A DNA stretch of 64,000 nt from NCBI GenBank assembly GCA_938048735.1, contig CALIUM010000005.1, forward strand, positions 5,525-69,524. The letters run 5' to 3'. Of this stretch, positions 1,183 through 55,233 are shown piece after piece. Made by a program: the position numbers and the translations under genes. The notes under the pieces are model-generated. The model was not told the DNA's origin and did not search any database. It saw only the letters and a program-made list of their open reading frames with translations. Within the stretch, counting starts at the first letter, position 1; each line of letters starts with the position of its first letter. The stretch is from an uncultured archaeon (GTDB lineage Archaea > Thermoproteota > Bathyarchaeia > TCS64).

Positions 1183-1286
1183 GCGGGGGTTCCCGAGACT
1201 GGCCAAAGGGGCGAGACTTAAGATCCTGAGCTCGGGAAGAGATCTCGTGGCTTAGGCCTTCGTGGGTTCGAGTCCCACCCCCCGCA
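1183..1286 (+). tRNA. tRNA-Leu (anticodon UAA) with a ~19 nt intron after position 37
   Basis: Acceptor GCGGGGG/CCCCCGC, anticodon stem CGAGA/UCUCG, loop CUUAAG|intron|A, long variable arm UGGCUUAGGCCUUC (class II), T-arm GUGGG-UUCGAGU-CCCAC, discriminator A. The intron sits at the canonical archaeal 37/38 site. Confidence 0.8.
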
Positions 1287-5719: not shown

Positions 5720-5931
5720 ATAGCTCAGGACTCCAAGGCCCGCGATGGTCTGGGGGCCGTAGGTAGCACCTGCCAGACTGTAGTACAGCCATATTTCCCT
5801 TACCCAATATATAGAAGTTATTATAAATAAATAAAGCTTTTCTCTGGGTTGACCCTCTCAGGATTGAGGTTGAACGATGTCAGAAGAGTGGAAAAGATAG
5901 AATCATAAATTTCTATTTAAACAAATTATAT

Positions 5932-6729
5932 TCAGAATTTATAGCGTTCTTTTAGATACTCCTTGAGATTTGAGATTGATGCAATCGCTGGGGACCTGTC
6001 ATCTATGTCTAATGGTGATCTACCTTTGAGATCCGCCTCCACGACCACTGGGTCGTAGGGGATGTAGGCGGCTATTGGTATATCCGCCTCCCTCACGCTC
6101 TCCTCGATGAACCTCCTCTCATCATCGCTCCTAATCTTGTTCCCCACAGCGAGAACTTCCCTGATCTCAAGCTCGGAGGCCAGCCTCCTTATCCTTCTGA
6201 GGGTCTCTATGGACTTCATCCCAGGCTCGACTACGACGAGCATGGAGTCCATCCTCCGCGTCGTCCCTCTCCCAAGGTGCTCAAGCCCAGCCTCCATATC
6301 CATTATGACTATCTCCCTCCTCTGGATGAGGAGGTGCTGCATCAGAACCCTCAAGAGGGCGTAGGCTGGGCACATACAACCCTTATCCGCAGCCCTTACA
6401 GTCCCCATCACCAGCAGCTTCACACCGTCCGGGCCGACCACCCCGAACCTGTCAACTATGTCATTAACCGTTGGGGTCATCCTGAATATCACCCCATAAG
6501 ATGATCCGGGAGGGAACCCAGTCCTCTCCTCTATCAGTTTGGAGTTCTCCGACAGGGGGATGATCCCCTCCGCCTCCTCCCTGGGTATCCCTAGGCTTGA
6601 GGCGAGGTTGATGTTCGAATCCGCATCCACAGCTAGGACATTATACCCTTCCCTCGCCAGGAGCCTGGCTAGGGTCGCGGCTATGAAGGTCTTCCCAACT
6701 CCCCCCTTGCCTGCTACTGAGAGCTTCAA
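5932..6729 (-). CDS. cooC: CO dehydrogenase/ACS nickel-insertion ATPase (CooC/AcsF family)
   Basis: Deviant Walker A GKGGVGKT at the N-terminus and the CooC-specific metal-binding CMCP motif. It is the last gene of the cdh operon. Confidence 0.85.
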   Translation of the reverse strand: MKLSVAGKGGVGKTFIAATLARLLAREGYNVLAVDADSNINLASSLGIPREEAEGIIPLSENSKLIEERTGFPPGSSYGVIFRMTPTVNDIVDRFGVVGPDGVKLLVMGTVRAADKGCMCPAYALLRVLMQHLLIQRREIVIMDMEAGLEHLGRGTTRRMDSMLVVVEPGMKSIETLRRIRRLASELEIREVLAVGNKIRSDDERRFIEESVREADIPIAAYIPYDPVVVEADLKGRSPLDIDDRSPAIASISNLKEYLKERYKF

Positions 6730-6812
6730 AGGGTTTCACCCATTCCTACTGGCCTCTCAGAGGTCGAATATCAAGAACTTAATTTTAACTTAAGGAGGAG
6801 GAAGGAGGTTTT

Positions 6813-8225
6813 TCACTCCGTTTCAGGCTTCCAGTTTTCACTCAAGAACTTTGGGATGCCTGAGGAGTCTAGGGGGCCGACCATGGCCTTCCATCCAGAG
6901 AGCTCCTCCACCTCCCCACTTATCCTAGCCGCCCTCCCTGGGAGGATTAGCTTCCTGTGCTTCACGATTTCCCCCACCTTGAAGTTCTTCAGGGCCTCTG
7001 CGACCGTATCAGCCGTCATCTTCCTCCCCGCTATCGCGCTCTCAACTGATAGGCCCTCGGTGTCCACCACTACCAGGTGGCAGTCTATCTTGGCTGAGTC
7101 CAGGTCGGATGCGACGGTGTAATATGTCAGGGCGAAGTTGGAGGTGAGGAGGACTGGGGAAAGCTCGTTGGGGGAGCCGAACCTCCTTACCCCAGGTTCC
7201 ACGGACACGGGCTTCCTGGGATCGGTGTAAATGTTCTGCCTCAGGATGACTAAGGGGAGGAGGGCCCACCCGCTGATGCTGTGCATTATCAGGGCGTCGG
7301 CATACCGAACTATCAGGGCCGCGGCAAGCATCGCCTCATTCCACTCGTTTATAACAGGGTCCTCGGCCTCCTCTCCCCAGACCGTTATGGGGGTTCCCAG
7401 GAGGGGGAATCCCAGTAGGTCGTCCCCCTTATCGATCGCTGCGATCCTCAATGCCGTGAAGTTGTTCAGGGTCTCTGGGAGACCCTCAGATCCTAGGGTT
7501 CCCGGATCTAGGACTATGTCCTTGACACCATACTCCAGGAGGGTCTTTACTATGGATTTCAATCCATTAAGGTCGAAGGGGGATGAGGCCACGAGGGGGC
7601 AGCCGTACATGATGGCCAGTTCTGCCATCTCCCTCCAGTTGTCCTTGGTCGCTGCGTAGATGAGGGGCCTCTTATCCGGGACTGCTGCCAATCCCTGCTC
7701 CATAACAGTCGGGTCTAGGGAGCATAGGATGAGGGGCATCTTAGAGGCCTCCCAAGCCTTCCTTACAGCTGCTTCGAATCTACTTGGATCGTTTGATGTT
7801 GACCTTATGGCAAGCATGTCCAGCTTCAGCTTCATACCTATATACTCGTACTCGAACTCCCTCACGGCCTTTATCCTGGCTTCCATCTCCTCCTCCTCCA
7901 TCTCGTCGCTCAGGTCTATGGCTATGACGGTTGGGTGGAAGTAGGTCAGCTCATGGCGGTAGACGACGTATTCCCCTCCAAGGGTCACCTTTCCATCTCC
8001 CACCCCCACCTCCACGGCCCTTATCGGGGGCCTTAGGAGGCCCCATAACTTATCGTATAATGGCTTATTCTTTGGGTCCATGAGGGGGGGGCACTTCTCC
8101 AGTGGAACCTCCCTGTTGACCAGCCTCGTGGCGAAGGCCATGCAGTTGGTCTCCCCGCACTCCTTACAGTTGGTTCTTGGGAGGAGCTTGTAGACATCTA
8201 TTGGGCTCAGCTCCTTAGCCGGCAT
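6813..8225 (-). CDS. cdhE: acetyl-CoA decarbonylase/synthase gamma subunit (corrinoid Fe-S protein large subunit)
   Basis: N-terminal 4Fe-4S motif CKECGETNCMAF, 470 aa, in operon position after cdhD. Confidence 0.9.
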   Translation of the reverse strand: MPAKELSPIDVYKLLPRTNCKECGETNCMAFATRLVNREVPLEKCPPLMDPKNKPLYDKLWGLLRPPIRAVEVGVGDGKVTLGGEYVVYRHELTYFHPTVIAIDLSDEMEEEEMEARIKAVREFEYEYIGMKLKLDMLAIRSTSNDPSRFEAAVRKAWEASKMPLILCSLDPTVMEQGLAAVPDKRPLIYAATKDNWREMAELAIMYGCPLVASSPFDLNGLKSIVKTLLEYGVKDIVLDPGTLGSEGLPETLNNFTALRIAAIDKGDDLLGFPLLGTPITVWGEEAEDPVINEWNEAMLAAALIVRYADALIMHSISGWALLPLVILRQNIYTDPRKPVSVEPGVRRFGSPNELSPVLLTSNFALTYYTVASDLDSAKIDCHLVVVDTEGLSVESAIAGRKMTADTVAEALKNFKVGEIVKHRKLILPGRAARISGEVEELSGWKAMVGPLDSSGIPKFLSENWKPETE

Positions 8226-8238
8226 CTATCACCACCTC

Positions 8239-9447
8239 CTATATCCTTAGTCCAACCCACTCGATGGGCCTCTCGGGTGTGCTCTTCTTCATCAGGTTGT
8301 CTATCATCATCTTTATCGCCTTCACCGAGGCCGGATGCATCATCATGAAGTAGTCGACCCCGGCTAGGAGGAGGGTCTCGGCGGTTATCGCCTCCCATAG
8401 AGGTCCCCTCAGCTCCCTTGGAGCCCACGTTGGTCCAAGCTGCATCCAAGCCTCCCTCGCCGCCCAAGCATTCGTCGCCCCTGAAGAGATTGGATGGTTG
8501 AGCTCTGGATCTCCCTTGAGCGCAGCTAGACGTGCCCTCTCCATCACGGTGAAGGCGTAGTCGAGGCCGTAGCCCAACGCGGCGGTGGTTGTGTCCATGA
8601 CTATGTGCTCCTTTGGCATATACTCGTAGAGCTTCCTGTTCAGCTCCCTGGCCTTGTTCACGTCCATCGATGTGAAGGCTATAACCCTGTGGCCGTGCTC
8701 CTCCACAACCCTCGCTGTGGCCTCAATATCCATATCAAGGGTTACTGAGCCGAATAGGATTCGCTCCCCTTCAGTAGCCTCGGCGACTGCCCTGAAGACC
8801 TCCAGATCCTTCTTAGGATCCCCGCAGCCACCTACGGCTATAGGAACTTCTACGGCCTGGAGCACCTCCTCAATGGTCTTCACAGCCTCTTTGGGAGGGG
8901 TGTCCTTTATCAGGGGGTCTATGCTCAGGAGGTGGACGTTCACCATCTCCGCCCCAAACCTCTCCACCGAGAGCCTCGCCCACTCAGCAGGGTCGTGGAG
9001 GACCTCCCCGACATGCATCTTAACAGCCCTCGGAAGCCTGACCTCTGGATAGTCGAAGACGTCTAGGGCTATAACCGGTCTGTGTGGGGTCTCTTGGAGG
9101 AATGAGTAGTAGGCAGGGGCCCTCTCCCCACCTATGATTAATGTTCTAGCCCTGCTTCCACCCTCTGCCCTAGTTGCTCCAAGTTCAACCTCCACAATAA
9201 CGCCCGGATACTCCTCAACTGGGAGTCGGAACTCGGCCTCTAGGAGGGATGTGGGCTTGGCCTTCACAGGTGCCTCCACCGGTGCTTTCGGAGCTTGAAC
9301 CATAAACGAACCTGGGCTCAGGCTCAGCTCCAGCTCCTCAAAGTCTATCTCCACATCCTCCAGCTCAACCTCCTGCAGCTTGGCGAGAGCCTCCAGTATA
9401 TCTAGACCTATTGGGAGGGGTTGGTCCTTCTTCCTAGCCTCAAACAT
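8239..9447 (-). CDS. cdhD: acetyl-CoA decarbonylase/synthase delta subunit (corrinoid Fe-S protein small subunit)
   Basis: 402 aa TIM-barrel-like CdhD/AcsD homolog, positioned between cdhC and cdhE. Confidence 0.85.
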   Translation of the reverse strand: MFEARKKDQPLPIGLDILEALAKLQEVELEDVEIDFEELELSLSPGSFMVQAPKAPVEAPVKAKPTSLLEAEFRLPVEEYPGVIVEVELGATRAEGGSRARTLIIGGERAPAYYSFLQETPHRPVIALDVFDYPEVRLPRAVKMHVGEVLHDPAEWARLSVERFGAEMVNVHLLSIDPLIKDTPPKEAVKTIEEVLQAVEVPIAVGGCGDPKKDLEVFRAVAEATEGERILFGSVTLDMDIEATARVVEEHGHRVIAFTSMDVNKARELNRKLYEYMPKEHIVMDTTTAALGYGLDYAFTVMERARLAALKGDPELNHPISSGATNAWAAREAWMQLGPTWAPRELRGPLWEAITAETLLLAGVDYFMMMHPASVKAIKMMIDNLMKKSTPERPIEWVGLRI

Positions 9448-14060: not shown

Positions 14061-14867
14061 TTACCACCATAAGGCCCGATATGGACCGAGGGGGGCTTTA
14101 GGGTTTAGTTTCCACACACCCAGCCGTCTGTTCAAATTTGTGTCAAGTTCATCAATTTTTGCAGCCTTATACTTGGTAACCTCTTTTGACATTACCCTTT
14201 TATCCGTCATGGCGGCTGCTCTAGCATAAATTCCCTCATTCAGAAGATATTTCAAAGCTTTGAAAGGGAGCTCGTAGAATTCCCCAATTGCACCAGTTCT
14301 TTGTGTAAAGCCTTCTGGAGTTGCAGCCTTGAAAGAAACTCTAACATAAATGAAACTCGAAAATTGTGATAGTCTTCTTACATAATCCCTATCTGAGCCG
14401 AGAAGTATACCATTAGTTTCGAGATAAAAAGGATACTTCGTTTTCCCAACATGTTCCAAGACTGAAAGAAGATGCTCCTTTCCTAATGTGGGTTCGCACC
14501 CAGATAATCTAAGCTTTTTCACTTTCCGAATAACCCTTCTCCAATAATCAGAATAAATTATCCCTTCTTCAGCTGCCTTGAAAAGATTTTGAGCAGCCTG
14601 CTTAGGAGAATAGAATTTTCCAAACTTTTCAGGAAAGTCTCCTGACCAGTTTGACCAGCAGTAAATGCACCTTAAACAACAGCCAGCTGCATAGCCTGTT
14701 GCAATCCCTTTATAAACCGGAACAGAATAAAAACCAGTGTATTTCCTTTCAAGCCCTTCATCTCCCTGCCTAGTTACAATCTTCTCAGTCTCCTTTGCTA
14801 GCTCCAATGGGTTGAAAGGCTTAAAACCTCGAGTTAAGAACCTTTGGTATTCATTCATCAAATCCAA
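14061..14867 (-). CDS. radical SAM protein, PflA/NrdG-type activase-like
   Basis: CxxxCxxC motif in context GCCLRCIYCWSNW and a SAM-binding SGCEPTL motif. Codon usage is markedly lower-GC than the flanking genes. Confidence 0.7.
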   Translation of the reverse strand: MDLMNEYQRFLTRGFKPFNPLELAKETEKIVTRQGDEGLERKYTGFYSVPVYKGIATGYAAGCCLRCIYCWSNWSGDFPEKFGKFYSPKQAAQNLFKAAEEGIIYSDYWRRVIRKVKKLRLSGCEPTLGKEHLLSVLEHVGKTKYPFYLETNGILLGSDRDYVRRLSQFSSFIYVRVSFKAATPEGFTQRTGAIGEFYELPFKALKYLLNEGIYARAAAMTDKRVMSKEVTKYKAAKIDELDTNLNRRLGVWKLNPKAPLGPYRALWW

Positions 14868-28366: not shown

Positions 28367-28585
28367 GCCAGGCAGAGAATCCTTGAGTGATATCTGATAG
28401 AAAAATCAAATGACTGTTCTCCCACACCTATTTTTGGAATTTAAGCGCTCTTACCCGTCTTCGGATCTATAGATCGATAGTTTGTTTATGATTTATTATT
28501 TCATTCCTAGAGGGTACTGTACTTTCCCGAAAAGATAAATTTTAAACCATGGGTCGAGCAGGAATTTAGCCAAGTTGAGGGGCCC

Positions 28586-30376
28586 ATGGAGAGGCTGATC
28601 CACAACGGCGTACTGGTACCTACAAAGTATGAGGCGAAGGGGCTTAGAGTCTGGGTTAGGGGGGTTGAGGTCAGGCTGACCTCAGAGCAGGAGGAGATGG
28701 CTGTGGCATGGGCTAGGAAGATAGGGACGCCATACGTCGAGGATCCGGTCTTCGCCGGTAACTTTCATCGAGATTTCTCCAAGAAGCTTGGGATAGAGGT
28801 CAAGCCCGGAGATGTTGACTACTCAGAGGTCCTCAGAGAGGTCATGAGAGAGAGGGAGTACAGGGCAAGACTGACCAGGGAGGAGAGGAAGAGGCTGGCT
28901 GAGGAGAGGAGGAGAATTAGGGAGGAGAGAAAGGAGTTATACGGCTACGCCTGGGTCGACGGGATAAGGATGGAGGTAGGGAACTACACAGTTGAGCCCA
29001 GCTCCATATTCATGGGCCGGGGAAACCATCCGAGGCGTGGATCCTGGAAGGAGGGGCCGAAGGAGGAGGATATAGAACTCAATCTCTCCCCAGATGCCCC
29101 GAGGCCTAAGGGCAACTGGAAGGCCATAGTGTGGGATCCCGACGCTATGTGGATAGCCAGGTGGAGGGATAAGCTGAGCGGGAGGATGAAGTATGTCTGG
29201 CTCTCAGAATCCTCCTACCTCAAGCAGAGGAGGGAGCTGGAGAAGTTCGAGAAGGCTAGAGAGCTGGGAAACAACATAGAGAGGGTTAAGAGGCACATCT
29301 TTGAGAACCTCTCCTCTAAGGATCCTAAGAGGAGGAAGACCGCGACTGTATGCTACCTTATAGACGCCCTGAAGATACGGGTCGGGGACGAGAAGGATGA
29401 GGATGAAGCCGACACGGTGGGAGCCTCAACCCTTAGGCCGGAGCACTTAACCTTCAACGAGGATGGCACGGTAACCTTCGACTTCCTCGGGAAGGACTCA
29501 ATTCGCCACCTCATCACCGCTAGGTTGCCTGAGGAGGTTGTGAGGAACCTTAAGGAGTTCATGGCCGAGGCACGATCAACCATATTCGAGGGCGTGGACT
29601 CTGAGAGGGTCAGCGAGTTTCTAAACGAGGTCCACCAAGGTCTATCGGCCAAGGTCTTCAGGACCTTCTACGCAACGAGCGCTGTAGAGAAAGAATTGAT
29701 GAGGAGGAGAGTTAAGGAGAATGATCCTAAATATTTAAAAAGATATATTGCAATTATGGCGAATCTTGAGGCTGCAAAAATATGTAACCATAAAAGGGCA
29801 ATACCTAAGAACTGGGAATCATCTCTAAAGAAAAAAGTTGAAAAAATTGAAAAATTAAAAATTGAATATAAAAAATTGGAAAAAAATCTGAAAGAAAAAA
29901 TGAAGGAAATAGATGTGCGCTTTAAAGATAGATTATATAAAAAAGTGAAGGGTTTAAATGAAGAAAGAAGAAAGATGGATGAAATAAAAGAAATTATAGA
30001 AAAGAGAAGGATTGAAGGAAAATCTATAGATAGCTTAAAGGAGAGGTTAATTAAAAAGAAGAATAATGTTGAAAATTTAAGGAATAGTATAAGGAAAATA
30101 AAAAATGAATGGGGGGTTTATAGAAAAAGAGTGATTAATAGATTGGATGAATTGAAGGCCAGATATCGAAAGAAGCTTGAGGAGCTCAGAATCCAAGTGG
30201 AGATCCAGAGGGAGACCCGCGACTACAACCTAGGTACATCCCTTAAAAGTTACATAGATCCCCGGGTATACTATGAGTGGGGCGAGAGAATCGGATACAG
30301 CTGGAGAGAGTACTATCCTGCAACTCTCCAGAGAAAGTTCAGCTGGGTAGAGGCCCGGAAAACGCAGACCGGGTAG
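28586..30376 (+). CDS. eukaryote-type DNA topoisomerase IB
   Basis: The core aligns to human TOP1 with all catalytic residues present (R in ASTLRPEHL, K in FLGKDSIRH, R in AKVFRTFYA, H in KICNHKRA, Y in SLKSYIDPR). A Lys/Glu-rich coiled-coil linker precedes the Tyr domain. Confidence 0.85.
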   Translation: MERLIHNGVLVPTKYEAKGLRVWVRGVEVRLTSEQEEMAVAWARKIGTPYVEDPVFAGNFHRDFSKKLGIEVKPGDVDYSEVLREVMREREYRARLTREERKRLAEERRRIREERKELYGYAWVDGIRMEVGNYTVEPSSIFMGRGNHPRRGSWKEGPKEEDIELNLSPDAPRPKGNWKAIVWDPDAMWIARWRDKLSGRMKYVWLSESSYLKQRRELEKFEKARELGNNIERVKRHIFENLSSKDPKRRKTATVCYLIDALKIRVGDEKDEDEADTVGASTLRPEHLTFNEDGTVTFDFLGKDSIRHLITARLPEEVVRNLKEFMAEARSTIFEGVDSERVSEFLNEVHQGLSAKVFRTFYATSAVEKELMRRRVKENDPKYLKRYIAIMANLEAAKICNHKRAIPKNWESSLKKKVEKIEKLKIEYKKLEKNLKEKMKEIDVRFKDRLYKKVKGLNEERRKMDEIKEIIEKRRIEGKSIDSLKERLIKKKNNVENLRNSIRKIKNEWGVYRKRVINRLDELKARYRKKLEELRIQVEIQRETRDYNLGTSLKSYIDPRVYYEWGERIGYSWREYYPATLQRKFSWVEARKTQTG

Positions 30377-30439
30377 ACTATAGAGGATTGAGGTTCTGGG
30401 GTTGCTCCAGATTCTTTAAATTTGAAATCCCGCTAAGCT

Positions 30440-41134: not shown

Positions 41135-41284
41135 CTAAAAAAGCCCAAAAACCGCTCCATCGTTTATAAAACTAAGAATTTATTTATAATTGAATATTTA
41201 ATTGATTTCGGATCCATGATCATGTCAGATAGAGGTTATATGCTGAGTATGATGGTAAAGGTTAAATAGGTATTTAAAATCTAA

Positions 41285-41698
41285 ATGATGAGAAAAGGCA
41301 TGTCTAGAGCTAGAGCCAGAGACGAGGAGATCCTTCAGGTTCTTAAAGATATAAAGGCTTTACTGGAGCCCAAACCACCGCCTCCACCCCCTCCTCCACC
41401 CCCACCTCCCCCCAAGGGCCTTTGGAACGAGTTTCTGGACTTCGTATCAAAGTACAAGGTTATGGGAATGGCCGTGGCCTTCATCCTAGGCTTATATCTG
41501 GGCACCCTTGTACAGGCACTAGTTAATGACCTGATCATGCCTATAATAACGATAATTCTACCAGGTGTTGAATGGGAAGCATTTGTGCTGGGACCGTTCC
41601 GCATCGGGCACTTCATAGGAGCCTTAATAACCTTCCTACTGGTAGCCTTCGTGGTCTTCATGTTAGTCAAGATAACAAAAAAATGGGGGATCGAATAA
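41285..41698 (+). CDS. mscL: large-conductance mechanosensitive channel with polyproline N-terminal extension
   Basis: The S1/TM1/TM2 region (LWNEFLDFVSKYKVMGMAVAFILG...DLIMPII) aligns with MscL. It is preceded by a 44 aa extension that includes 13 consecutive prolines. Confidence 0.7.
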   Translation: MMRKGMSRARARDEEILQVLKDIKALLEPKPPPPPPPPPPPPPKGLWNEFLDFVSKYKVMGMAVAFILGLYLGTLVQALVNDLIMPIITIILPGVEWEAFVLGPFRIGHFIGALITFLLVAFVVFMLVKITKKWGIE

Positions 41699-42322
41699 CA
41701 TCCAAATTTATTTCAAATCATAATTTTGAAATCATGTTTAATGACTAGATTAGAATTGAAACGTTAGACTACAATAACACTTTTTGGAATATATTCTTAA
41801 GTTATTAGGCGATAATTTTAAGTTTTCATCTTATAATATGATTTATCTAGGAAAAAACTTGTTAGAAAAATGATTCAATTTCTTATTTCTAAAATTTAGT
41901 TCTGAATGGATTTGGACATTAATTTACTTTAATATAAATTCTAAAAGTTCTATTTTTATGATTTTGAGGAATTCTTCCATAATAATCCTAATGATTTTAC
42001 TATTTATTTGTTTTTTAATTTTTCTATTTATTGATGTGTAAGCATTATTATGAGTTTAGGGTAAAGACAAGTAATGTAAAGGTTTGGAATATTTGACAAT
42101 CATTCACCGCATCCCTCTAGCAACGGGGGGTGTAACTAAAGCTATTCTATAACCCCTCCTCCAGCGCCAACTATGCCCAAAAAGACCTTTGTCATTCCTC
42201 TAAAATAATTAGACTTATTAAAGGTTTGGGATATTTGAAGCGGAGGCCAAGACTCTTTATTCGAAAGGTTTAAATATAGCGGTTTCTGCCGATTCTGGAT
42301 TTGAAGAGGAGGATTAAAAATC

Positions 42323-42727
42323 ATGGAAAATGAAATGAAAAAGGAAGTTAAAATACTTGAAGACTGTATGAAAGTTGCTGAACATGAAAATCTTATTTGG
42401 GTTTGTGATGGAGCTGCAAACGTGGGTCAAGTGGGCCAGGCAATTGGTGTTTTGCTCTCAAACTTGGATAAGGGACGAATGTGTTGTACAGTAGCCGTAG
42501 CAGCTGGCTCTAAGCGTCATCTAGAGATAGCTGAAAAAGCGAAAAAGAACATAGTTATAAATGGGTGCGCAAATAGATGCGCTTCCAAAGTTTTAGAGAA
42601 TGCTGGAAAGAAAATAAACTATGAAATAATCATATCTAAGTATTTGCAAAAGGTTCCCACACTTGACATCTATATGGGTGACGCGAAGAAGATAGCCCAA
42701 ATAATAATTGAAGAAGCCAAGCTTTAA
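42323..42727 (+). CDS. DGC-domain putative zinc-binding protein
   Basis: 134 aa with conserved WVCDGAANVGQ and NGCANRCASK Cys/Gly motifs. The gene is AT-rich. Confidence 0.5.
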   Translation: MENEMKKEVKILEDCMKVAEHENLIWVCDGAANVGQVGQAIGVLLSNLDKGRMCCTVAVAAGSKRHLEIAEKAKKNIVINGCANRCASKVLENAGKKINYEIIISKYLQKVPTLDIYMGDAKKIAQIIIEEAKL

Positions 42728-43360
42728 GAATGAAAAAAGCAGGATACGTAAAGGCAGCTAATTTATAAAGTGCCCATATTTCTCTATTTTATATAAAGTG
42801 TGGTTCTGTTGACTGTTCTTATAACCCCTTACATAGCAAATAAAATACGATAATACGATAAATCTTTATTTCAGGTGAGTTTAGCTACTTCATGCTCTGT
42901 TGTAGGTGGGACTTTTTAGCAAAAGGTATCAAAGTTGATATTAATGGGACCACGAAACCCATGGCGGTTGTAAATTGGATGGTTATTCCCCATATATTGA
43001 ATAGTGTTACTAAAAAAGGAGATATAGACATTGTCTAAATCCCCCCTCTTTTCATAATTAGCAATCCAACAGCAGTTATAAATCACTGAACCTCCAACAC
43101 AAAGAAATCTTATTTATAGTCAGAATAATCACTGGAGCAACTTCCACATCCAAAAGACCACCTGTCATAATTGCTCTAAGGTATCCCAAGACAATTCTTC
43201 GCATATTTTTAAACTCATCTTCATCAATGTTCAGGGAATTCGTGCCCCCTAGTCTTAACATGAGAATTTAAACCTTCTTCCTAGATGAAAACCTAACTAA
43301 AAACTAAAAAGACAATAATTTGAGATTATTTAGGGAAAACCGCCAAAAAAGGCAATCTTG

Positions 43361-43398
43361 AGTAGTGCAGTGGTGGGATTAGAACCCACGGAGGACTA
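43361..43398 (-). repeat. partial tRNA-Leu 3'-half copy (att-like direct repeat)
   Basis: agtgc..ggtgggattagaacccacggaggact matches 27/28 nt of the 3' half (variable arm + T-arm) of tRNA-Leu(CAG) located 3.6 kb away, in the same orientation. Confidence 0.5.
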
Positions 43399-43528
43399 AA
43401 ACTTTGAAAAATTATGTCGCATATAACTCTACAAAAACAAGATTTAAAGAACTTCGCCATACCTTTTTCAAAGTGTTAGTTCCTATATGTTCTATTAACA
43501 ATGACTAAAGGAATGAAGTTTGCATGTT

Positions 43529-46500
43529 TTAGGGGCTATTCTGGGGGCTTTTTCGAAGTAGGAGTTCTTGGTATTCCGAGTTTATTTTTCCGTATTTTTC
43601 TTTGACGGTTCTGCTGATTTTATGCCAGTCTTGGATTATTTTTGGCCATAGCTCGCTGGTTATTAGCTGTTTTGTCACGTATTCTTTTAATGATTTTTCC
43701 CGTTTAATTGTTCTTTGGCGCCAGTCAAAGCTTATGAGTCCTGCACGTTTCAAATGTTGAATTGTGTGACCTATTTGGTCGTAATTAAGTGGGTGATCCA
43801 TGCTTATTGCTAAGTCTTCTAGGATGGAGTCAATTGTTATTTGGTCTTCTGCGCGCAGACAGATGTTGGCTATAACTGTTTGGATGATCCTCGTAGTCTT
43901 GGTAAGGTATATCCCAATCCTCTTTGGCGGGATAAGGGTTTGTTCTAGGCGGTAGCTATACCTCCTGTAAAACCAGCTTTTGATGATTTCGGCCAGTGTC
44001 AAATAGGTGCCTAGAATCGCGGCTAGGGCTATGAAGAAAGTTGCTGGAGGCTTTACAAATCTGAAAATTTCTCCTAATGGCGTGTAAGGAATTATCAACG
44101 CGAATGTTATTATTGCTATGCTGCTGAGGAGCACAAGTCGACTCGGCTTGCTTTTCCAGAAAGGCAACCTTTTTGTTCTAATGACAAAGATTATAAGAGT
44201 CTGTGAAGTTAGGGATTCGATGAACCAAGCGGTTTGAAACAGTTGCTCATAAGCGTTAAAGATAAAAAGCATTATAAAGAATGTTAGAAAGTCGAAGATG
44301 GAGCTGACAGGTCCGAGGCACACCATGAACTGTCTAATGAAGTGTATATCCCACCTTTTAGGCTTTTCAATGTATTCTTGGTCAACCTCGTCCGTGGATA
44401 TTGTTGACTGCGAAAAGTCATAGAGCAAATTGTTGAGCAATATCTGTATGGGTAGCATGGGCAGGAAGGGCAGAAACAATGATGCGCCGGCAACGCTGAA
44501 CATGTTTCCGAAGTTTGAGCTCACGCTCATCATGATATACTTCATAGTGTTGCCGAAGGTTTTCCTACCATCCAAAACACCGTCATAAAGCACTCTCAAA
44601 TCGTTCTGCAAAAGAATTATGTCAGCGGATTCCTTTGCAACATCAACAGCGTTTTCCACAGATATGCCAATGTCCGCGCTTTTTAGGGATGGCGCATCGT
44701 TAATCCCATCCCCTAGAAACCCAACAACGTGTCCATTACCCTTTAAAGCATTCATTATTCTGTCCTTCTGGGCTGGTGTAACCCTGCAGAACACATTTGC
44801 TTCTTCGACAACTCTTGCAAGGGCGTCATCATGCATTTGGGCAATCTCGCTTCCAGTGACTATTCCTTTTATATCAAAGCCGAGGTGTTCGCAAACCTTC
44901 CTTGTTACCAGTTCATTATCACCTGTGAGAATTTTCAGCTCTATGCTAGCATTTTTCAGAAGCTGCAAGGTTTCTCTCGCTGTTTCTTTAGGAGGGTCAA
45001 GAAAAGCTACGAATCCCAAAAACACCAGCTCTTTCTCGTCATTTGCTGTATATGTTGGCTTGTCCTCTCTTAAGCGCTTGTAGGCTACGGCTAGGACCCT
45101 ATAGCCTTCAGCACTAAGCTCAACATATTTCTGCTCAATTTTTCTGCGTACTTCATCTGTTATGTCGACTATAACCTCTCCAACCTCATAGAAGGAGCAA
45201 ATCTTGGCAACCTCTTCTGGAGCCCCCTTTGTGACCATGAACCGTTGACTCTGATATTCAACAACTATGGAGAGCCTTCTACGAACAAAATCAAAAGGCA
45301 CCTCATCAATCTTCTTATAATTTTCAACATCTACCTCTCTAAATCTTAGTATAGCCTCGTCTAAGGGGCTTTTAATTCCAGTTTGGTAGTGGCTGTTGAG
45401 GTAGGAATAAAGCAGAACCTTATCGTTTTCGTCGCCGTTAAGATCCACATGTAGGACAAGCTTTATCCGGTTTTCCGTCAAAGTCCCAGTTTTATCCGTG
45501 CATAGAATATCCATACTTCCAAAATCTTGTATCGCTGTCAAGCGCTTCACAATCACGTCCTTCTTAGCCATCGACACTGCTCCTTTAGAGAGGTTTACTG
45601 TAATTATCATCGGCAAAAGTTCCGGCGTTAATCCCACAGTCAAAGCTACAGCGAAGAGAAGCGAATCAAGCACGCTTCGCATGTAAAGGGCATTAATGAA
45701 GAACACAAATATGACTAGCAGAAAAGTTACTTGCATTATCATGTAACCAAAACTTCGAATACCCCTCTGGAACTCCGTCTCAACCTCTCTTTCCACAAGC
45801 TTCCCCGCAATTTTCCCATACTCTGTTAGGCTACCAGTTTTCATGACAACAGCAGTTGCTGTCCCGCTCACAACAGAAGTGCCCATAAAAAGATAGTTGC
45901 TCCACTCCGTTATAGACGGGTCATAGGATTTCAGCGGCAAGCCAGTCTTCTCAACTGGAAAAGATTCACCAGTCAATGCAGATTGGTTCACGAATAAGTC
46001 TTTTGCACTTATAACTCGGGCGTCTGCAGGCACAAGGTCGCCTGCTGAAAGGAATATAATGTCTCCGGGGACAACCTCTGCAAGCCTAACCTCTCTTTTG
46101 GTGCCATCCCTCAAAACGGTGGCCGTTGTCGCCACCCTCTGCTTCAGCATTTCAGCCGCCCTTTCAGCCTTAGATTCTTGATAAAAGCCCAAGACTGCGC
46201 TGACCATCACTATAACAAATATAATAGCTGTGTTCGCAACTTCACCAAAAAAGCCTGAAATCAGCCCAGCGATAAGGAGAATTATTATCAACGGACTTTT
46301 GAAATGGGAAAGGAACTCGATGATGACTGCTCTCCTCTTTTTTCTAACAAGCTCATTATAGCCAAAAAATTCAAGACGCCTTTCTGCTTCCTCAGAGGAA
46401 AGCCCATCCATTGAAGACTTCAAGCGTGAAAGAAGCTCTTCAACAGGCGAAGTTAAAACTTCTTCAGCGCTCGGCAGAGCCCAGCCTAAAACTTCGCCAA

Positions 46501-46543
46501 TACTTGACCTTTCTAAATCCTGAACCACCATCATTCCCACCAT
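43529..46543 (-). CDS. mgtA: Mg2+-importing P-type ATPase (MgtA family) with ~150 aa C-terminal extension
   Basis: P-type ATPase motifs (TGES, DKTGTLT, TGDN, GDGxNDxP) and MgtA-like N-terminus. 1004 aa versus ~900 aa typical. The gene is AT-rich. Confidence 0.85.
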   Translation of the reverse strand: MVGMMVVQDLERSSIGEVLGWALPSAEEVLTSPVEELLSRLKSSMDGLSSEEAERRLEFFGYNELVRKKRRAVIIEFLSHFKSPLIIILLIAGLISGFFGEVANTAIIFVIVMVSAVLGFYQESKAERAAEMLKQRVATTATVLRDGTKREVRLAEVVPGDIIFLSAGDLVPADARVISAKDLFVNQSALTGESFPVEKTGLPLKSYDPSITEWSNYLFMGTSVVSGTATAVVMKTGSLTEYGKIAGKLVEREVETEFQRGIRSFGYMIMQVTFLLVIFVFFINALYMRSVLDSLLFAVALTVGLTPELLPMIITVNLSKGAVSMAKKDVIVKRLTAIQDFGSMDILCTDKTGTLTENRIKLVLHVDLNGDENDKVLLYSYLNSHYQTGIKSPLDEAILRFREVDVENYKKIDEVPFDFVRRRLSIVVEYQSQRFMVTKGAPEEVAKICSFYEVGEVIVDITDEVRRKIEQKYVELSAEGYRVLAVAYKRLREDKPTYTANDEKELVFLGFVAFLDPPKETARETLQLLKNASIELKILTGDNELVTRKVCEHLGFDIKGIVTGSEIAQMHDDALARVVEEANVFCRVTPAQKDRIMNALKGNGHVVGFLGDGINDAPSLKSADIGISVENAVDVAKESADIILLQNDLRVLYDGVLDGRKTFGNTMKYIMMSVSSNFGNMFSVAGASLFLPFLPMLPIQILLNNLLYDFSQSTISTDEVDQEYIEKPKRWDIHFIRQFMVCLGPVSSIFDFLTFFIMLFIFNAYEQLFQTAWFIESLTSQTLIIFVIRTKRLPFWKSKPSRLVLLSSIAIITFALIIPYTPLGEIFRFVKPPATFFIALAAILGTYLTLAEIIKSWFYRRYSYRLEQTLIPPKRIGIYLTKTTRIIQTVIANICLRAEDQITIDSILEDLAISMDHPLNYDQIGHTIQHLKRAGLISFDWRQRTIKREKSLKEYVTKQLITSELWPKIIQDWHKISRTVKEKYGKINSEYQELLLRKSPQNSP

Positions 46544-46952
46544 CCATTCTCGCCGAACAACCTCCAGGGGCTGGACTCTTACATTCTTGCAAAGATACCA
46601 TCATAAAATTCTTTCCTCAACTCCATAGTTAAAACTGACAATAGTTTCTGTTAGGAGACACTAATGGAAAAGTGCTCCTTGAGAAGCAACGCTGTAATAT
46701 GCGGATCAGAATTCTAACCCATAGGTGAAATCCACTTCTCATCGTTACTTCCCGTAAGAGAAGATCTAACTCACAAAGAAAGGAAAAGTGCACCATGCAA
46801 TGTAGATTGTAAACCATGCACACGATACGCTAATGGAAAATGCATCGGATGCCCAACAACAATCAATTTAGAGGAACACTCTAAGAAAATGGAAGAGTGG
46901 AAAAATGAGCTTCTTTAGCCAAAATAACCTCGTATAAGGCTTTATTTTTTTA

Positions 46953-47035
46953 GTGCGGGGGGTGGGATTCGAACCCACGGAGGACTCATCCAGCAGGTCC
47001 TGAACCTGCCCCCTTTGGCCCCTCGGGAACCCCCG
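46953..47035 (-). tRNA. tRNA-Leu (anticodon CAG)
   Basis: Acceptor GCGGGGG/CCCCCGC, anticodon arm GCAGG-UUCAGGA-CCUGC, long variable arm, T-arm GUGGG-UUCGAAU-CCCAC, discriminator A. No intron. Confidence 0.85.
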
Positions 47036-47047
47036 CCTTTTAGGATT

Positions 47048-54207: not shown

Positions 54208-55233
54208 TTATGAGCCCTTTGAACTTGTAAAGCGATGCTTTGTTTTCGCCGCTATCTTTACGAACGCTAGCATGGATGGCACCTCCCAGAGTGGACCTAC
54301 TGCCGTGGCAAGAGCTGCGCCTGAGCCCACACCGAAGACTGTTATGGCCGTGGCGATCGCGACTTCAAATTGTGTTCCTGAGCTGATGAAGGCGATGGTT
54401 ACGGCATCTCTATATTGGAAACCGAGAAACCAGGGTATGATGTAAAAAAGCGAAGCCATTAGGAAGAAGTGAGCTAGTAAAGGAGCCGATATCAAGCCAA
54501 CCAAAAGGGGCTGCTCTGCAATTATCTCACCCTTTAAAGAAAATAGAACTATAATGGTTACAAGTAGCGCTACGACTGCTATATTACCTATAATCGGTTG
54601 AAACCTTACTTTAAACCAGATTTCTCCCCTCTTCTTAAATAAAATCCATCTTGTAGTCTGACCTAAGGCTAACGGCAAACCGACAAAGAGAATGACGCTT
54701 TTAGCTATAGGATCTATAGGAATTGGAATGCCGCCTACACCCAAGTATAAGGCTGCTAAGGGAGTGTAAAGTATGAGCGTTGACAAGGCGTTGATGGCGG
54801 TAATTACTACACCTTTGGCGACATCCCCTCCAGCCAGAAGGATCCAGAATAGGACCATGCCTGTGCAAGGCGCTATACCGAGGAGGATTACGCCAGCTGT
54901 AAACTGAGGATAGCTGTTAAGGAAGAGGCGGGCGAGGAGTGTCATGAGGGCTGGAGCCACCACCCAGTTGCCAACCAACGTGAGGATTGCTGGTTTAGGA
55001 GACTTGGCTGCTTTAACCAATTCCTTAAATTCTATGCTCGCCATGGTGGGATACATTATGAAAAAAAGAGCAACACCCATTGGAATCGAGATACCGCTAA
55101 CTTGAAGCTGTTCAATCCATACACCCAACATTGGGGCGAGCTTCCCTAGAAGGAGGCCCAAGACCATTGACATGATAACCCATACAGTCGTGTACTTCTC
55201 TAATTTCCCAAGGGTTGGACGGGACTGCATCAA
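54208..55233 (-). CDS. arsB: arsenite efflux transporter ACR3
   Basis: 10-TM BART-fold permease with the ACR3 conserved LGIAPCTGMV cysteine motif, 341 aa. Confidence 0.8.
   Translation of the reverse strand: MMQSRPTLGKLEKYTTVWVIMSMVLGLLLGKLAPMLGVWIEQLQVSGISIPMGVALFFIMYPTMASIEFKELVKAAKSPKPAILTLVGNWVVAPALMTLLARLFLNSYPQFTAGVILLGIAPCTGMVLFWILLAGGDVAKGVVITAINALSTLILYTPLAALYLGVGGIPIPIDPIAKSVILFVGLPLALGQTTRWILFKKRGEIWFKVRFQPIIGNIAVVALLVTIIVLFSLKGEIIAEQPLLVGLISAPLLAHFFLMASLFYIIPWFLGFQYRDAVTIAFISSGTQFEVAIATAITVFGVGSGAALATAVGPLWEVPSMLAFVKIAAKTKHRFTSSKGS

What the first reader, a model, noticed from the sequence alone, without database searches (positions are those of the whole stretch)
28586..30376. 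Eukaryote-type topoisomerase IB with a lysine-rich linker in a Wood-Ljungdahl archaeon
The 596 aa ORF aligns along the core and C-terminal domains of eukaryotic Top1. All five catalytic residues are in place: R in ASTLRPEHL, K in FLGKDSIRH, R in AKVFRTFYA, H in KICNHKRA, and the active-site Y in SLKSYIDPR. A ~140 aa Lys/Glu-rich coiled-coil linker separates the core from the Tyr domain, as in eukaryotic Top1. The linker's codon usage is conspicuously AT-rich (29.70-30.15 kb) inside an otherwise GC-rich gene. TopoIB is patchily distributed in archaea and is best known from Nitrososphaerota/aigarchaeal lineages. Finding it beside ACDS/Mer/F420 genes is taxonomically informative and may reflect an old transfer.
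Basis: partly seen in the sequence, partly recalled or inferred. Interest (0 to 1): 0.6.

Follow-up and report, generated by a model that had tools for sequence, protein, structure and literature searches.

The report
Archaeal topoisomerase IB with patchwork linker
This is an ordinary, intact eukaryote-type DNA topoisomerase IB of a Bathyarchaeia archaeon, an enzyme already known in that group; its one unusual feature is a 430-base AT-rich patch, shared with its closest relatives, that looks like a relic of an old partial gene replacement.

Summary
ORF 28586-30376 (+) encodes a 596-aa long-form topoisomerase IB. It has all three Pfam domains, the catalytic pentad R284/K303/R359/H402/Y556, and a confident predicted TopIB clamp fold.

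TopIB has been reported in Bathyarchaeota (MCG) since 2013. Hundreds of Bathyarchaeia genomes carry it, and gene order around it is conserved, so no whole-gene transfer is needed. The ~134-aa linker hairpin, against 77 aa in human Top1 and 57 aa in Caldiarchaeum TopIB, is the usual form in Bathyarchaeia.

The unusual part is compositional. Codons 379-522 (nt 29720-30151) have GC3 0.23, against 0.71 in the rest of the gene, and the shift is in synonymous codon choice. This tract is not the linker as such: it starts before the catalytic His and ends inside the second linker helix.

Five close orthologues from independent assemblies share the tract. About 75 other lineages and the nearest outgroup lack it. 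Its linker protein is abnormally diverged. On well-polarised branches it is drifting toward GC at the same synonymous rate as the flanks.

Most likely it is an ancestral partial replacement from an unidentified low-GC homologue, now slowly ameliorating. Interest is modest.

The parts
28586..30376 (+). Complete topoisomerase IB gene (596 aa plus stop codon)
   Evidence: ORF listing, Pfam, PDB sequence search, AF2 model and Foldseek
28592..29203 (+). CAP / DNA-binding region (Topoisom_I_N, aa 3-206). There is no eukaryote-type charged N-terminal extension.
   Evidence: Pfam PF02919, E 2.3e-49. The alignment starts at residue 3 of the query and residue 6 of CsTOP1.
29213..29887 (+). Catalytic core (Topoisom_I, aa 210-434) with R284 (29435-29437), K303 (29492-29494), R359 (29660-29662) and H402 (29789-29791)
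   Evidence: Pfam PF01028, E 2e-64. Alignment to human Top1. Conservation in 112 homologues. Codons read directly from the sequence.
29813..30214 (+). Linker: antiparallel two-helix hairpin, helix aa 410-476, turn 477-481 (G478 nearly invariant), helix aa 482-543. Net charge is +20.
   Evidence: AF2 secondary structure, pLDDT mostly above 90. Charge count and ~3.5-3.6-residue hydrophobic periodicity. G478 conservation.
29720..30151 (+). AT-rich, purine-rich, C-poor compositional patch (codons 379-522). GC3 is 0.23 against 0.71 outside. The coding strand of codons 406-522 is A 0.53, C 0.03, G 0.21, T 0.23.
   Evidence: Change-point model, codon tables, composition profile, base composition. Shared by orthologues L081, L082, L084, L086 and L087 and absent in outgroup L088.
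30170..30355 (+). C-terminal domain (Topo_C_assoc, aa 529-590) with the catalytic Tyr556 (30251-30253)
   Evidence: Pfam PF14370, E 2e-15. Aligned to human Y723. Invariant in homologues.
28367..28585 (+). AT-rich upstream intergenic region (GC about 0.37). It contains a TATA-like stretch (aaaagataaattttaaa) about 40 nt before the ATG and is presumed to be the promoter.
   Evidence: Sequence and composition only. This is inference and was not tested.
30395..30421 (+). Stem-loop followed by a T-rich run just after the stop codon; a possible terminator
   Evidence: Consensus scan only. The evidence is weak.

Best explanation
The gene encodes a functional, vertically inherited, long-form (eukaryote-like) type IB topoisomerase of a Bathyarchaeia archaeon. 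By inference from the family, the CAP and CAT lobes clamp duplex DNA. Tyr556, assisted by R284, K303, R359 and H402, nicks one strand through a 3'-phosphotyrosine bond. The downstream duplex then swivels to release positive or negative supercoils, and the nick is resealed. The highly basic (+20) 134-aa coiled-coil hairpin, roughly 95-100 A long if about 1.5 A per residue is assumed, would lie along the rotating downstream DNA and act as the brake of 'controlled rotation', reaching about twice as far as the human linker. That long hairpin is the usual form in Bathyarchaeia. Superimposed on this, in the common ancestor of one genus- or family-level sub-clade, the segment coding for the end of the catalytic domain and most of the linker (codons ~379-522) was replaced by a homologous, same-length segment from an unidentified low-GC TopIB gene. 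The mechanism would be recombination giving a mosaic gene. The patch has no separate function and has since been drifting slowly toward the host's composition. What is shown: the enzyme's identity, architecture and active site; the patch itself, its boundaries, its restriction to one clade and its drift toward GC. What is inferred: catalytic activity, the mechanical role of the linker, and recombination as the origin of the patch.
For: Enzyme identity: three Pfam domains. PDB hits to CsTOP1 (7e-144) and human Top1 (3.5e-72) with the pentad aligned. AF2 pLDDT 92.6. Foldseek TM about 0.70 to human Top1-DNA complexes. CsTOP1 is biochemically a true TopIB (PMC4824112, PMC8748870).

Linker as a clade trait: about 45 of 80 species-level loci have a 134-135-aa stretch aligned to query residues 406-540, and 17 have 40-43 aa.

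The patch is real and inherited: the same GC3 collapse is seen in L081, L082/L083/L087 and L084/L085/L086, which come from five independent samples and three assembly sources. It is seen even where core GC3 is about 0.85. Boundaries agree within about 10 codons.

The patch is absent elsewhere: linker GC3 tracks core GC3 in most of the ~75 other lineages and is 0.80-0.97 in the nearest outgroup L088.

The process acted on DNA, not on the protein: the synonymous codon shift extends into the conserved His402 block and stops inside helix 2.

Abnormal divergence: at equal core identity (0.64-0.79), linkers of other lineages are 37-57% identical to one another, but the sub-clade's linker is only 22-34% identical to them.

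Amelioration: on branches with unambiguous direction the patch shows W>S 55 against S>W 24 (p = 6e-4), while the rest of the gene shows 54 against 101. The third-position W>S rate per site is the same in both (0.33 against 0.31, p = 0.75), and the implied equilibrium GC is the same (0.40 in both). This net gain of GC is seen independently in lineages A, B and C.

No nucleotide-level constraint: dS in the patch is about as high as or higher than in the core, and dN/dS is 0.19-0.39, so the protein is still selected.
Against: No donor was found. The exhaustive HMMER search with the patch gave at most 38% identity outside the sub-clade. The word-index search and the viral scan also gave no donor. 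Core and patch rank relatives in the same order, so no phylogenetic incongruence was demonstrated. The patch is more C-depleted (3% C, no Gln, no Ala) than the same linker in the lowest-GC Bathyarchaeia sampled (about 10% C), which a simple swap does not explain. Third-position S>W changes are somewhat more frequent in the patch (11 of 24 against 65 of 307, p = 0.01). Lineage C's patch lags its GC-enriched core if the stem-C changes are read as gains. Both points leave room for a weak local AT-favouring force. The parsimony counts rest on six sequences and are partly saturated. Enzyme activity and the mechanical role of the linker were not tested.
Confidence: 0.55

Rival explanations
1. In-situ episodic recoding. 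The linker region was not imported. It underwent a burst of AT-directed change in the stem lineage of the sub-clade, for example through relaxed constraint combined with a transient local mutational bias, and it is now relaxing back.
For: The patch keeps exactly the family's linker length and register, including K417, R449, L457, G478, R487 and K506. No donor was found. Core and patch rank relatives the same way. The C-depletion is more extreme than in any sampled low-GC homologue. The linker evolves fast in every lineage.
Against: A local bias would have had to act on about 430 bp with sharp edges, including synonymous sites of the conserved His402 block, and then stop. Most of the ~75 other lineages show no tendency for linker GC3 to fall below core GC3. 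The change spectrum is general GC-to-AT with many transversions (C>A 19-36, G>T 22-27), not a deamination-type signature.
Confidence: 0.22
2. The AT-rich, purine-rich tract is maintained by selection because it acts at the DNA or RNA level. Possible roles are a rare-codon throttle on TopIB expression, an easily melted or R-loop-prone supercoiling sensor inside the topoisomerase's own gene, or an internal promoter.
For: The tract has persisted in all sampled descendants across dS of about 0.8-1.1. In lineage C it stays at GC3 about 0.30 although core GC3 is about 0.83. S>W changes at third positions are somewhat elevated. Strand asymmetry is extreme, with GC skew up to +0.9. Its codons are rare in this genome.
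Against: Synonymous divergence is not reduced in the tract. The W>S synonymous rate equals that of the flanks, and the net flux is toward GC in every lineage. No Rfam family matches it. There is no antisense ORF of 80 aa or more. A-runs lie at Lys-Lys positions and one is also present in the outgroup. The in-frame Met464 after a TATA-like motif is not conserved in lineage C. The lineage-C discrepancy largely disappears if the ambiguous stem is polarised the other way (my own recalculation from the counts).
Confidence: 0.1
3. The whole TopIB gene is an old horizontal acquisition in this Wood-Ljungdahl archaeon.
For: TopIB is absent from many archaeal phyla (PMC4824112). Long-form TopIB evidently can move between lineages: one lies next to sigma-54 genes on a Chloroflexota contig.
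Against: The gene is found throughout Bathyarchaeia. It was already used as a phylogenetic marker placing MCG beside Thaumarchaeota and Aigarchaeota (PMC3930316). Outside the patch its GC3 (0.71) matches neighbouring genes (0.55-0.76). Gene order is conserved among relatives.
Confidence: 0.05
4. The patch is an assembly or binning chimera.
For: The source is probably a metagenome-assembled genome. Two related contigs end near the patch: L033 stops at aa 362 and P0121 is a partial protein.
Against: The reading frame is intact. The same patch occurs in assemblies from five independent samples and three sources (Logan, NCBI, JGI), with 74-92% nucleotide identity and a divergence pattern that follows the core phylogeny.
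Confidence: 0.02

Closest known systems
Caldiarchaeum subterraneum TopIB (CsTOP1; PDB 6Z01/6Z03; PMC4824112, PMC8748870)
   Same: Archaeal long-form TopIB with no charged N-terminal extension. It has the same three domains and the same catalytic pentad. It is the best sequence match among solved structures, at E 7e-144 with aligned blocks 3-434 and 521-591. Its biochemistry shows genuine type IB relaxation.
   Different: The linker here is 134 aa, against 57 aa (residues 413-469) in CsTOP1. The distance from the catalytic His to the catalytic Tyr is 154 residues here, about 67 in CsTOP1 and 91 in human. The alignment skips query residues 435-520. The AF2 model is in the closed, human-like conformation rather than the open apo form.
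Human nuclear Top1 (for example PDB 1K4T, 1A36)
   Same: The clamp fold (TM about 0.70), the antiparallel coiled-coil linker, and residues R488/K532/R590/H632/Y723 all align.
   Different: Only 24-30% identity in the Foldseek alignments. There is no ~200-aa N-terminal domain. The linker is about 1.7 times longer (134 aa against 77 aa).
Other Bathyarchaeia (MCG) TopIB, first reported on fosmid 26B6 in 2013 (PMC3930316)
   Same: Same family and same ~135-aa linker class. Identity over the whole protein is 57-66%.
   Different: Most of those genes have uniform codon composition. This sub-clade carries the AT-rich patch and a Lys/Ile/Asn-rich linker with no Gln or Ala, which is only 22-34% identical to the others.
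Mosaic genes made by partial homologous replacement, followed by compositional amelioration (general concept from established knowledge)
   Same: An abrupt within-gene compositional discontinuity, boundaries shared by descendants, and net drift toward the host's composition.
   Different: No donor and no phylogenetic incongruence could be demonstrated.

Membership tests
Type IB DNA topoisomerase, long (eukaryote-like) form | Domain architecture Topoisom_I_N + Topoisom_I + linker + Topo_C_assoc | tested here: met
   All three Pfam domains score far above their gathering cut-offs: 168, 218 and 57 bits against 25, 23.7 and 25.1.
Type IB DNA topoisomerase, long (eukaryote-like) form | Catalytic pentad Arg-Lys-Arg-His-Tyr (human R488, K532, R590, H632, Y723) | tested here: met
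   R284, K303, R359, H402 and Y556 align to the human residues. They are invariant or nearly invariant in 112 homologues. Human numbering is taken from PMC4824112.
Type IB DNA topoisomerase, long (eukaryote-like) form | Two-lobe DNA clamp fold with a protruding antiparallel coiled-coil linker | tested here: met
   AF2 pLDDT 92.6 and pTM 0.79. Foldseek probability 1.00 and TM 0.66-0.70 to full-length human Top1-DNA complexes.
Type IB DNA topoisomerase, long (eukaryote-like) form | ATP- and Mg2+-independent relaxation of positive and negative supercoils through a 3'-phosphotyrosyl intermediate | not testable with these tools
   This needs purified protein. It has been shown for the homologue CsTOP1 (PMC4824112).
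Archaeal TopIB as described for Thaumarchaeota and Aigarchaeota | No variable charged N-terminal domain | tested here: met
   Homology to CsTOP1 and human Top1 starts at residue 3-6.
Archaeal TopIB as described for Thaumarchaeota and Aigarchaeota | Linker shorter than the eukaryotic one (53-57 aa) | tested here: not met
   The linker helices span residues 410-543, which is 134 aa. The alignment to CsTOP1 leaves about 86 residues unmatched. This is a descriptive trait of those lineages, not a catalytic requirement. A ~135-aa linker is the commonest class among the 80 loci retrieved.
Horizontally replaced gene segment (mosaic gene) | Sharp compositional discontinuity inside one reading frame, absent from outgroups | tested here: met
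   GC3 0.23 against 0.71 with a log-likelihood ratio of 52. No comparable drop in most of the ~75 other lineages or in the outgroup L088.
Horizontally replaced gene segment (mosaic gene) | Segment phylogeny or nearest relative differs from that of the rest of the gene; a donor lineage can be identified | tested here: inconclusive
   The best match outside the sub-clade is 38% identical. Core and patch rank relatives alike. However, the patch is abnormally diverged for its core identity.
Horizontally replaced gene segment (mosaic gene) | Amelioration: net substitution flux toward the host's composition at host-like rates | tested here: met
   W>S 55 against S>W 24 in the patch, compared with 54 against 101 in the rest of the gene. 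Third-position W>S rates are equal.

The most novel reading that the evidence does not exclude
The AT-rich, almost C-free polypurine tract inside the topoisomerase gene is not a passive relic. On this reading it is kept because it acts in cis, for example as an easily melted or R-loop-prone element that couples transcription of the TopIB gene to the local supercoiling state, or as a ~145-codon rare-codon throttle that limits production of a potentially toxic nicking enzyme.
Probability: 0.08. Interest if true: 0.7.

Novelty: new member of a known kind. Interest (0 to 1): 0.33.

Why it matters
The enzyme itself adds little. Archaeal eukaryote-like TopIB has been known since 2008, was reported in Bathyarchaeota in 2013, and now has biochemistry and a crystal structure.

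Two points have some value. First, most Bathyarchaeia TopIBs found here carry a linker hairpin about 1.7 times the human length and 2.4 times that of CsTOP1. The structural paper noted longer linkers only for some Asgard archaea. Linker length and flexibility are thought to set rotation control and camptothecin sensitivity, so these natural long and short (~40 aa by the same measure) versions within one class could serve as a ready-made comparison set.

Second, the gene is a clean example of a within-gene compositional mosaic in a core DNA-handling enzyme. The patch is conserved through roughly one synonymous substitution per site of divergence, which makes it useful for studying recombination and amelioration rates in uncultured archaea. 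It also shows that GC- or codon-based 'alien gene' screens can miss transfers smaller than a gene.

Tried and rejected
1. Slippage or tandem-repeat expansion as the origin of the tract. Only weak A-rich micro-repeats scoring 58 or less were found, none at score 80 or above anywhere in the window. The tract also includes a non-repetitive conserved block.

2. Assembly chimera. Rejected because independent assemblies share the patch.

3. Amino-acid composition alone as the cause. Rejected because the shift is in synonymous codon choice, with GC3 0.25 against 0.72.

4. A general property of long linkers. Rejected because linker GC3 tracks core GC3 in most of the ~75 other lineages.

5. Deamination or RIP-like hypermutation. 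Rejected because nearly half of the changes relative to outgroups are transversions.

6. Donor search. I tried segment-wise identity against about 200 homologues, a word-index search with the tract, an exhaustive HMMER search of 1.84 billion representatives and a scan of viral contigs, which returned only giant-virus TopIBs at 29-38% identity. None found a donor.

7. An embedded RNA or gene. No Rfam hit falls in the tract and there is no antisense ORF of 80 aa or more.

8. Functional A-runs or an internal start at Met464 after a TATA-like motif. Neither is specifically conserved.

9. My first polarised-substitution analyses suggested that the tract has a lower equilibrium GC than the rest of the gene and that it resisted GC enrichment in lineage C. 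The stem of lineage C cannot be polarised, because the root lies on it. With that branch excluded, tract and flanks share the same W>S rate and the same implied equilibrium, so I dropped that claim. What remains is a weak S>W excess.

10. The bacterial-type promoter scan is not informative for an archaeon.
Full report
**1. The observation**

Pfam finds the full long-form TopIB architecture. Topoisom_I_N covers aa 3-206 (E 2.3e-49), Topoisom_I covers aa 210-434 (E 2e-64) and Topo_C_assoc covers aa 529-590 (E 2e-15). NCBIfam has no model for it.

Against solved structures the best match is 6z01_A at E 7e-144. Human Top1 chains follow at about E 4e-72, then the Leishmania large and small subunits. 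6Z01 and 6Z03 are the Caldiarchaeum subterraneum enzyme CsTOP1 (PMC8748870).

This gives R284/K303/R359/H402/Y556, equivalent to human R488/K532/R590/H632/Y723 (numbering from PMC4824112). These residues are invariant or nearly invariant in alignments of 22 and 112 homologues.

An AlphaFold2 model built on the 112-sequence alignment is confident, with mean pLDDT 92.6 and pTM 0.79. It matches human Top1-DNA complexes at TM about 0.70, and CsTOP1 at probability 1.00 but lower TM, because that crystal form is the open apo state (PMC8748870).

**2. The linker**

In the model the linker is two long helices, aa 410-476 and 482-543, joined by a five-residue turn around the nearly invariant G478. It carries 30 Lys, 16 Arg, 5 Asp and 21 Glu, a net charge of +20. 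Its hydrophobic residues repeat with a period of 3.5-3.6 residues, as expected for a coiled coil.

At 134 aa it compares with 77 aa in human Top1 (residues 636-712) and 57 aa in CsTOP1 (residues 413-469) (PMC8748870). The alignment to CsTOP1 skips query residues 435-520.

This length is not peculiar to this genome. Among 80 species-representative loci, about 45, nearly all Bathyarchaeia, have 134-135 residues in the stretch aligned to query 406-540. Seventeen have 40-43. Contigs labelled Aenigmatarchaeota, Heimdallarchaeota and Chloroflexota have 98-146. The CsTOP1 paper mentions longer linkers only for 'several Asgard archaea' and does not mention Bathyarchaeota.

**3. Organism and context**

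The closest proteins, at 83-93% identity, and hundreds of others at 57-66% are labelled Bathyarchaeia, Bathyarchaeota or MCG wherever a source gives a name. Upstream lie a CODH/ACS operon (CdhA-like Prismane protein, CdhC, two CdhD-family subunits) and a luciferase-like, Mer-type oxidoreductase. These genes are 12-15 kb away and nothing links them functionally to TopIB.

The immediate neighbourhood is M20 peptidase, TopIB, HpcH/HpaI aldolase and FmdE. It is conserved in the close relatives. TopIB in MCG/Bathyarchaeota was reported in 2013 and used there as a phylogenetic marker (PMC3930316). It was seen again in MCG single-cell genomes in 2015 (PMC4571567). Outside the patch the gene's GC3 of 0.71 is typical of its neighbours. 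I see no reason to invoke transfer of the whole gene.

**4. The compositional patch**

GC content falls from about 0.55 to 0.21-0.27 between roughly 29.70 and 30.15 kb. This is not just Lys/Glu richness.

| Region (codons) | GC3 | Lys AAA/AAG | Glu GAA/GAG |
|---|---|---|---|
| 1-368 | 0.72 | 0/26 | 3/43 |
| 369-522 | 0.25 | 24/10 | 17/3 |
| 523-596 | 0.65 | 2/4 | 0/8 |

A two-change-point likelihood model puts the patch at codons 379-522 (nt 29720-30151), with a log-likelihood ratio of 52. It is the strongest within-gene GC3 drop among the 45 ORFs of 150 aa or more in the window, 0.38 against at most 0.17.

The patch is not the linker. It starts in the last helices of the catalytic domain, covers the strongly conserved MANLEAAKICNHKR block with His402, and ends 21 codons before the linker does. 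The coding strand of codons 406-522 is A 0.53, C 0.03, G 0.21, T 0.23, and the peptide has no Gln and no Ala.

**5. Is the patch real, and who has it?**

Most of the ~75 species-level relatives with a measurable linker show nothing comparable, and linker GC3 tracks core GC3.

All members of the close sub-clade do show it. These are L081 (93% protein identity), L082/L083/L087 (84%) and L084/L085/L086 (83%). They come from five independent samples and three assembly sources, and boundaries agree within about 10 codons. In L084 and L086 the core GC3 is about 0.85 and the patch about 0.32.

The nearest outgroup I could fetch is L088, with 77% core identity. Its GC3 is 0.80-0.97 across the whole gene, including the linker. 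The patch is therefore a derived character of one sub-clade and not an assembly artefact.

**6. Origin of the patch**

- **Tandem-repeat expansion.** Excluded.
- **Deamination-type hypermutation.** Not supported. Differences from four outgroups are GC-to-AT in every class and include many transversions.
- **Excess divergence.** The linker protein of the sub-clade is abnormally diverged. Lineages sharing 64-78% core identity with one another have 37-57% identical linkers. The sub-clade, at 67-79% core identity to them, has only 22-34%. This fits either replacement by a distant homologue or a burst of recoding.
- **Donor.** None could be found, whether among about 200 homologues, by a tract-only word-index search, by an exhaustive HMMER scan of 1.84 billion representatives (best outside hit 38% identical), or among viral contigs.

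**7. Relic or maintained?**

I polarised substitutions on a six-taxon tree with clades A (window, L081), B (L082, L087) and C (L084, L086).

Early versions hinted at a lower equilibrium GC in the patch. The direction of changes on the stem of clade C is ambiguous, because the root lies there: A and B are sisters by core identity.

Using only unambiguous branches:

| Measure | Patch | Rest of gene |
|---|---|---|
| W>S against S>W events | 55 against 24 (p = 6e-4) | 54 against 101 |
| Third-position W>S rate per W site | 0.33 | 0.31 (p = 0.75) |
| Implied equilibrium GC | 0.40 | 0.40 |
| Third-position S>W events per S site | 11 of 24 | 65 of 307 (p = 0.01) |

The net gain of GC appears independently in clades A, B and C. 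For lineages A and B, the patch's present GC3 is what the rest-of-gene regime predicts from the inferred ancestor: 0.24, 0.29 and 0.21 observed against 0.25-0.26 expected.

Synonymous divergence is not reduced in the patch: dS is 0.23-1.16, against 0.14-0.95 in the core. dN/dS is 0.19-0.39, against 0.05-0.13 in the core. The protein is therefore still selected and there is no extra constraint at the nucleotide level.

Together these results favour a single ancestral event followed by slow, ordinary amelioration. Two things remain unexplained: the weak excess of third-position S>W changes, and a C-depletion more extreme than in any sampled low-GC homologue.

**8. How it most likely works**

By homology with CsTOP1 and human Top1 the protein should clamp duplex DNA, nick one strand through Tyr556 and let the downstream duplex swivel. 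The basic linker would lie along that duplex (PMC8748870 discusses linker-DNA contacts and the link between linker flexibility and camptothecin response).

A hairpin with arms of about 65 residues should reach about 95-100 A. I calculated this from helix length and did not measure it on coordinates. That is about twice the human reach, so it could contact roughly three turns of downstream DNA. This mechanical role is inference only.

**9. Verdict**

This is a real, intact TopIB and a new member of a known family, in a lineage where the family is already documented. The long linker is a clade trait worth noting. The AT-rich patch is a genuine and unusual within-gene mosaic. It is most likely a partial homologous replacement (about 55%). 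In-situ episodic recoding is the main rival (about 22%), and a maintained cis-acting function is an outside possibility (about 10%).

Noticed in passing
L077 3998-5728 (TopIB), 5808-7277 (rpoN), 7287-8660 (NtrC-type activator); also L080 3962-5752: A long-form, eukaryote-like TopIB (576 aa, 47% identical to the query, ~98-aa linker class) lies 80 bp upstream of a sigma-54 gene (TIGR02395, 298 bits against a cutoff of 277) and a sigma-54-dependent activator. The 29.9-kb contig is labelled Anaerolineales. A second Chloroflexota MAG, on a 205-kb contig, has the same type. This suggests long-form TopIB exists in Bacteria, contrary to the 2016 statement that among prokaryotes it is confined to Thaumarchaeota (PMC4824112).
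   Followed up: partly
Proteins P0020 and P0084, insertion after the position equivalent to window aa ~330 (alignment A1, columns 342-407): Two Bathyarchaeia TopIBs (665-667 aa) carry a ~62-aa copy of their own linker tip inserted into the catalytic domain. The local alignment score is 154, against 42 +/- 6 for shuffled sequence. The hairpin has therefore been duplicated within the gene.
   Followed up: partly
L054, L057, L059, L060, L063-L067, L070-L073, L075, L076, L078, L079: A second class of TopIB of about 500 aa has only 40-43 residues in the stretch aligned to query residues 406-540. It occurs in Bathyarchaeia and in Jordarchaeia, alongside the ~135-aa class. Whether the two classes follow taxonomy or are paralogues was not examined.
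   Followed up: no
window 41200-47040: A low-GC island (GC 0.27-0.46, against about 0.55 around it) holds an MscL-like small membrane protein with a run of about 14 prolines (41285-41698), a small Cys-rich ORF (42323-42727) and a 1004-aa P-type cation ATPase (43529-46543, GC3 0.46). It ends next to a tRNA gene (46954-47036, minus strand). This may be an integrated foreign segment.
   Followed up: partly
window 14061-14867 (-) and 54208-55233 (-): Two whole genes have atypically low GC3: a radical-SAM protein (GC3 0.36), which sits immediately after the CODH/ACS operon in map order, and a sodium/bile-acid symporter family protein (GC3 0.49). The window appears to hold several pieces of low-GC DNA.
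   Followed up: no
window 1183-1286 (+): The tRNA match spans 104 nt, which is longer than a standard tRNA. It probably contains an archaeal intron.
   Followed up: no
L033 (contig ends at aa 362 of TopIB); P0121 (219-aa partial protein, 93% identical over the tract): Two contigs from close relatives break at or near the start of the AT-rich patch. This may reflect coverage loss or strain variation at the compositional junction in short-read assemblies.
   Followed up: no
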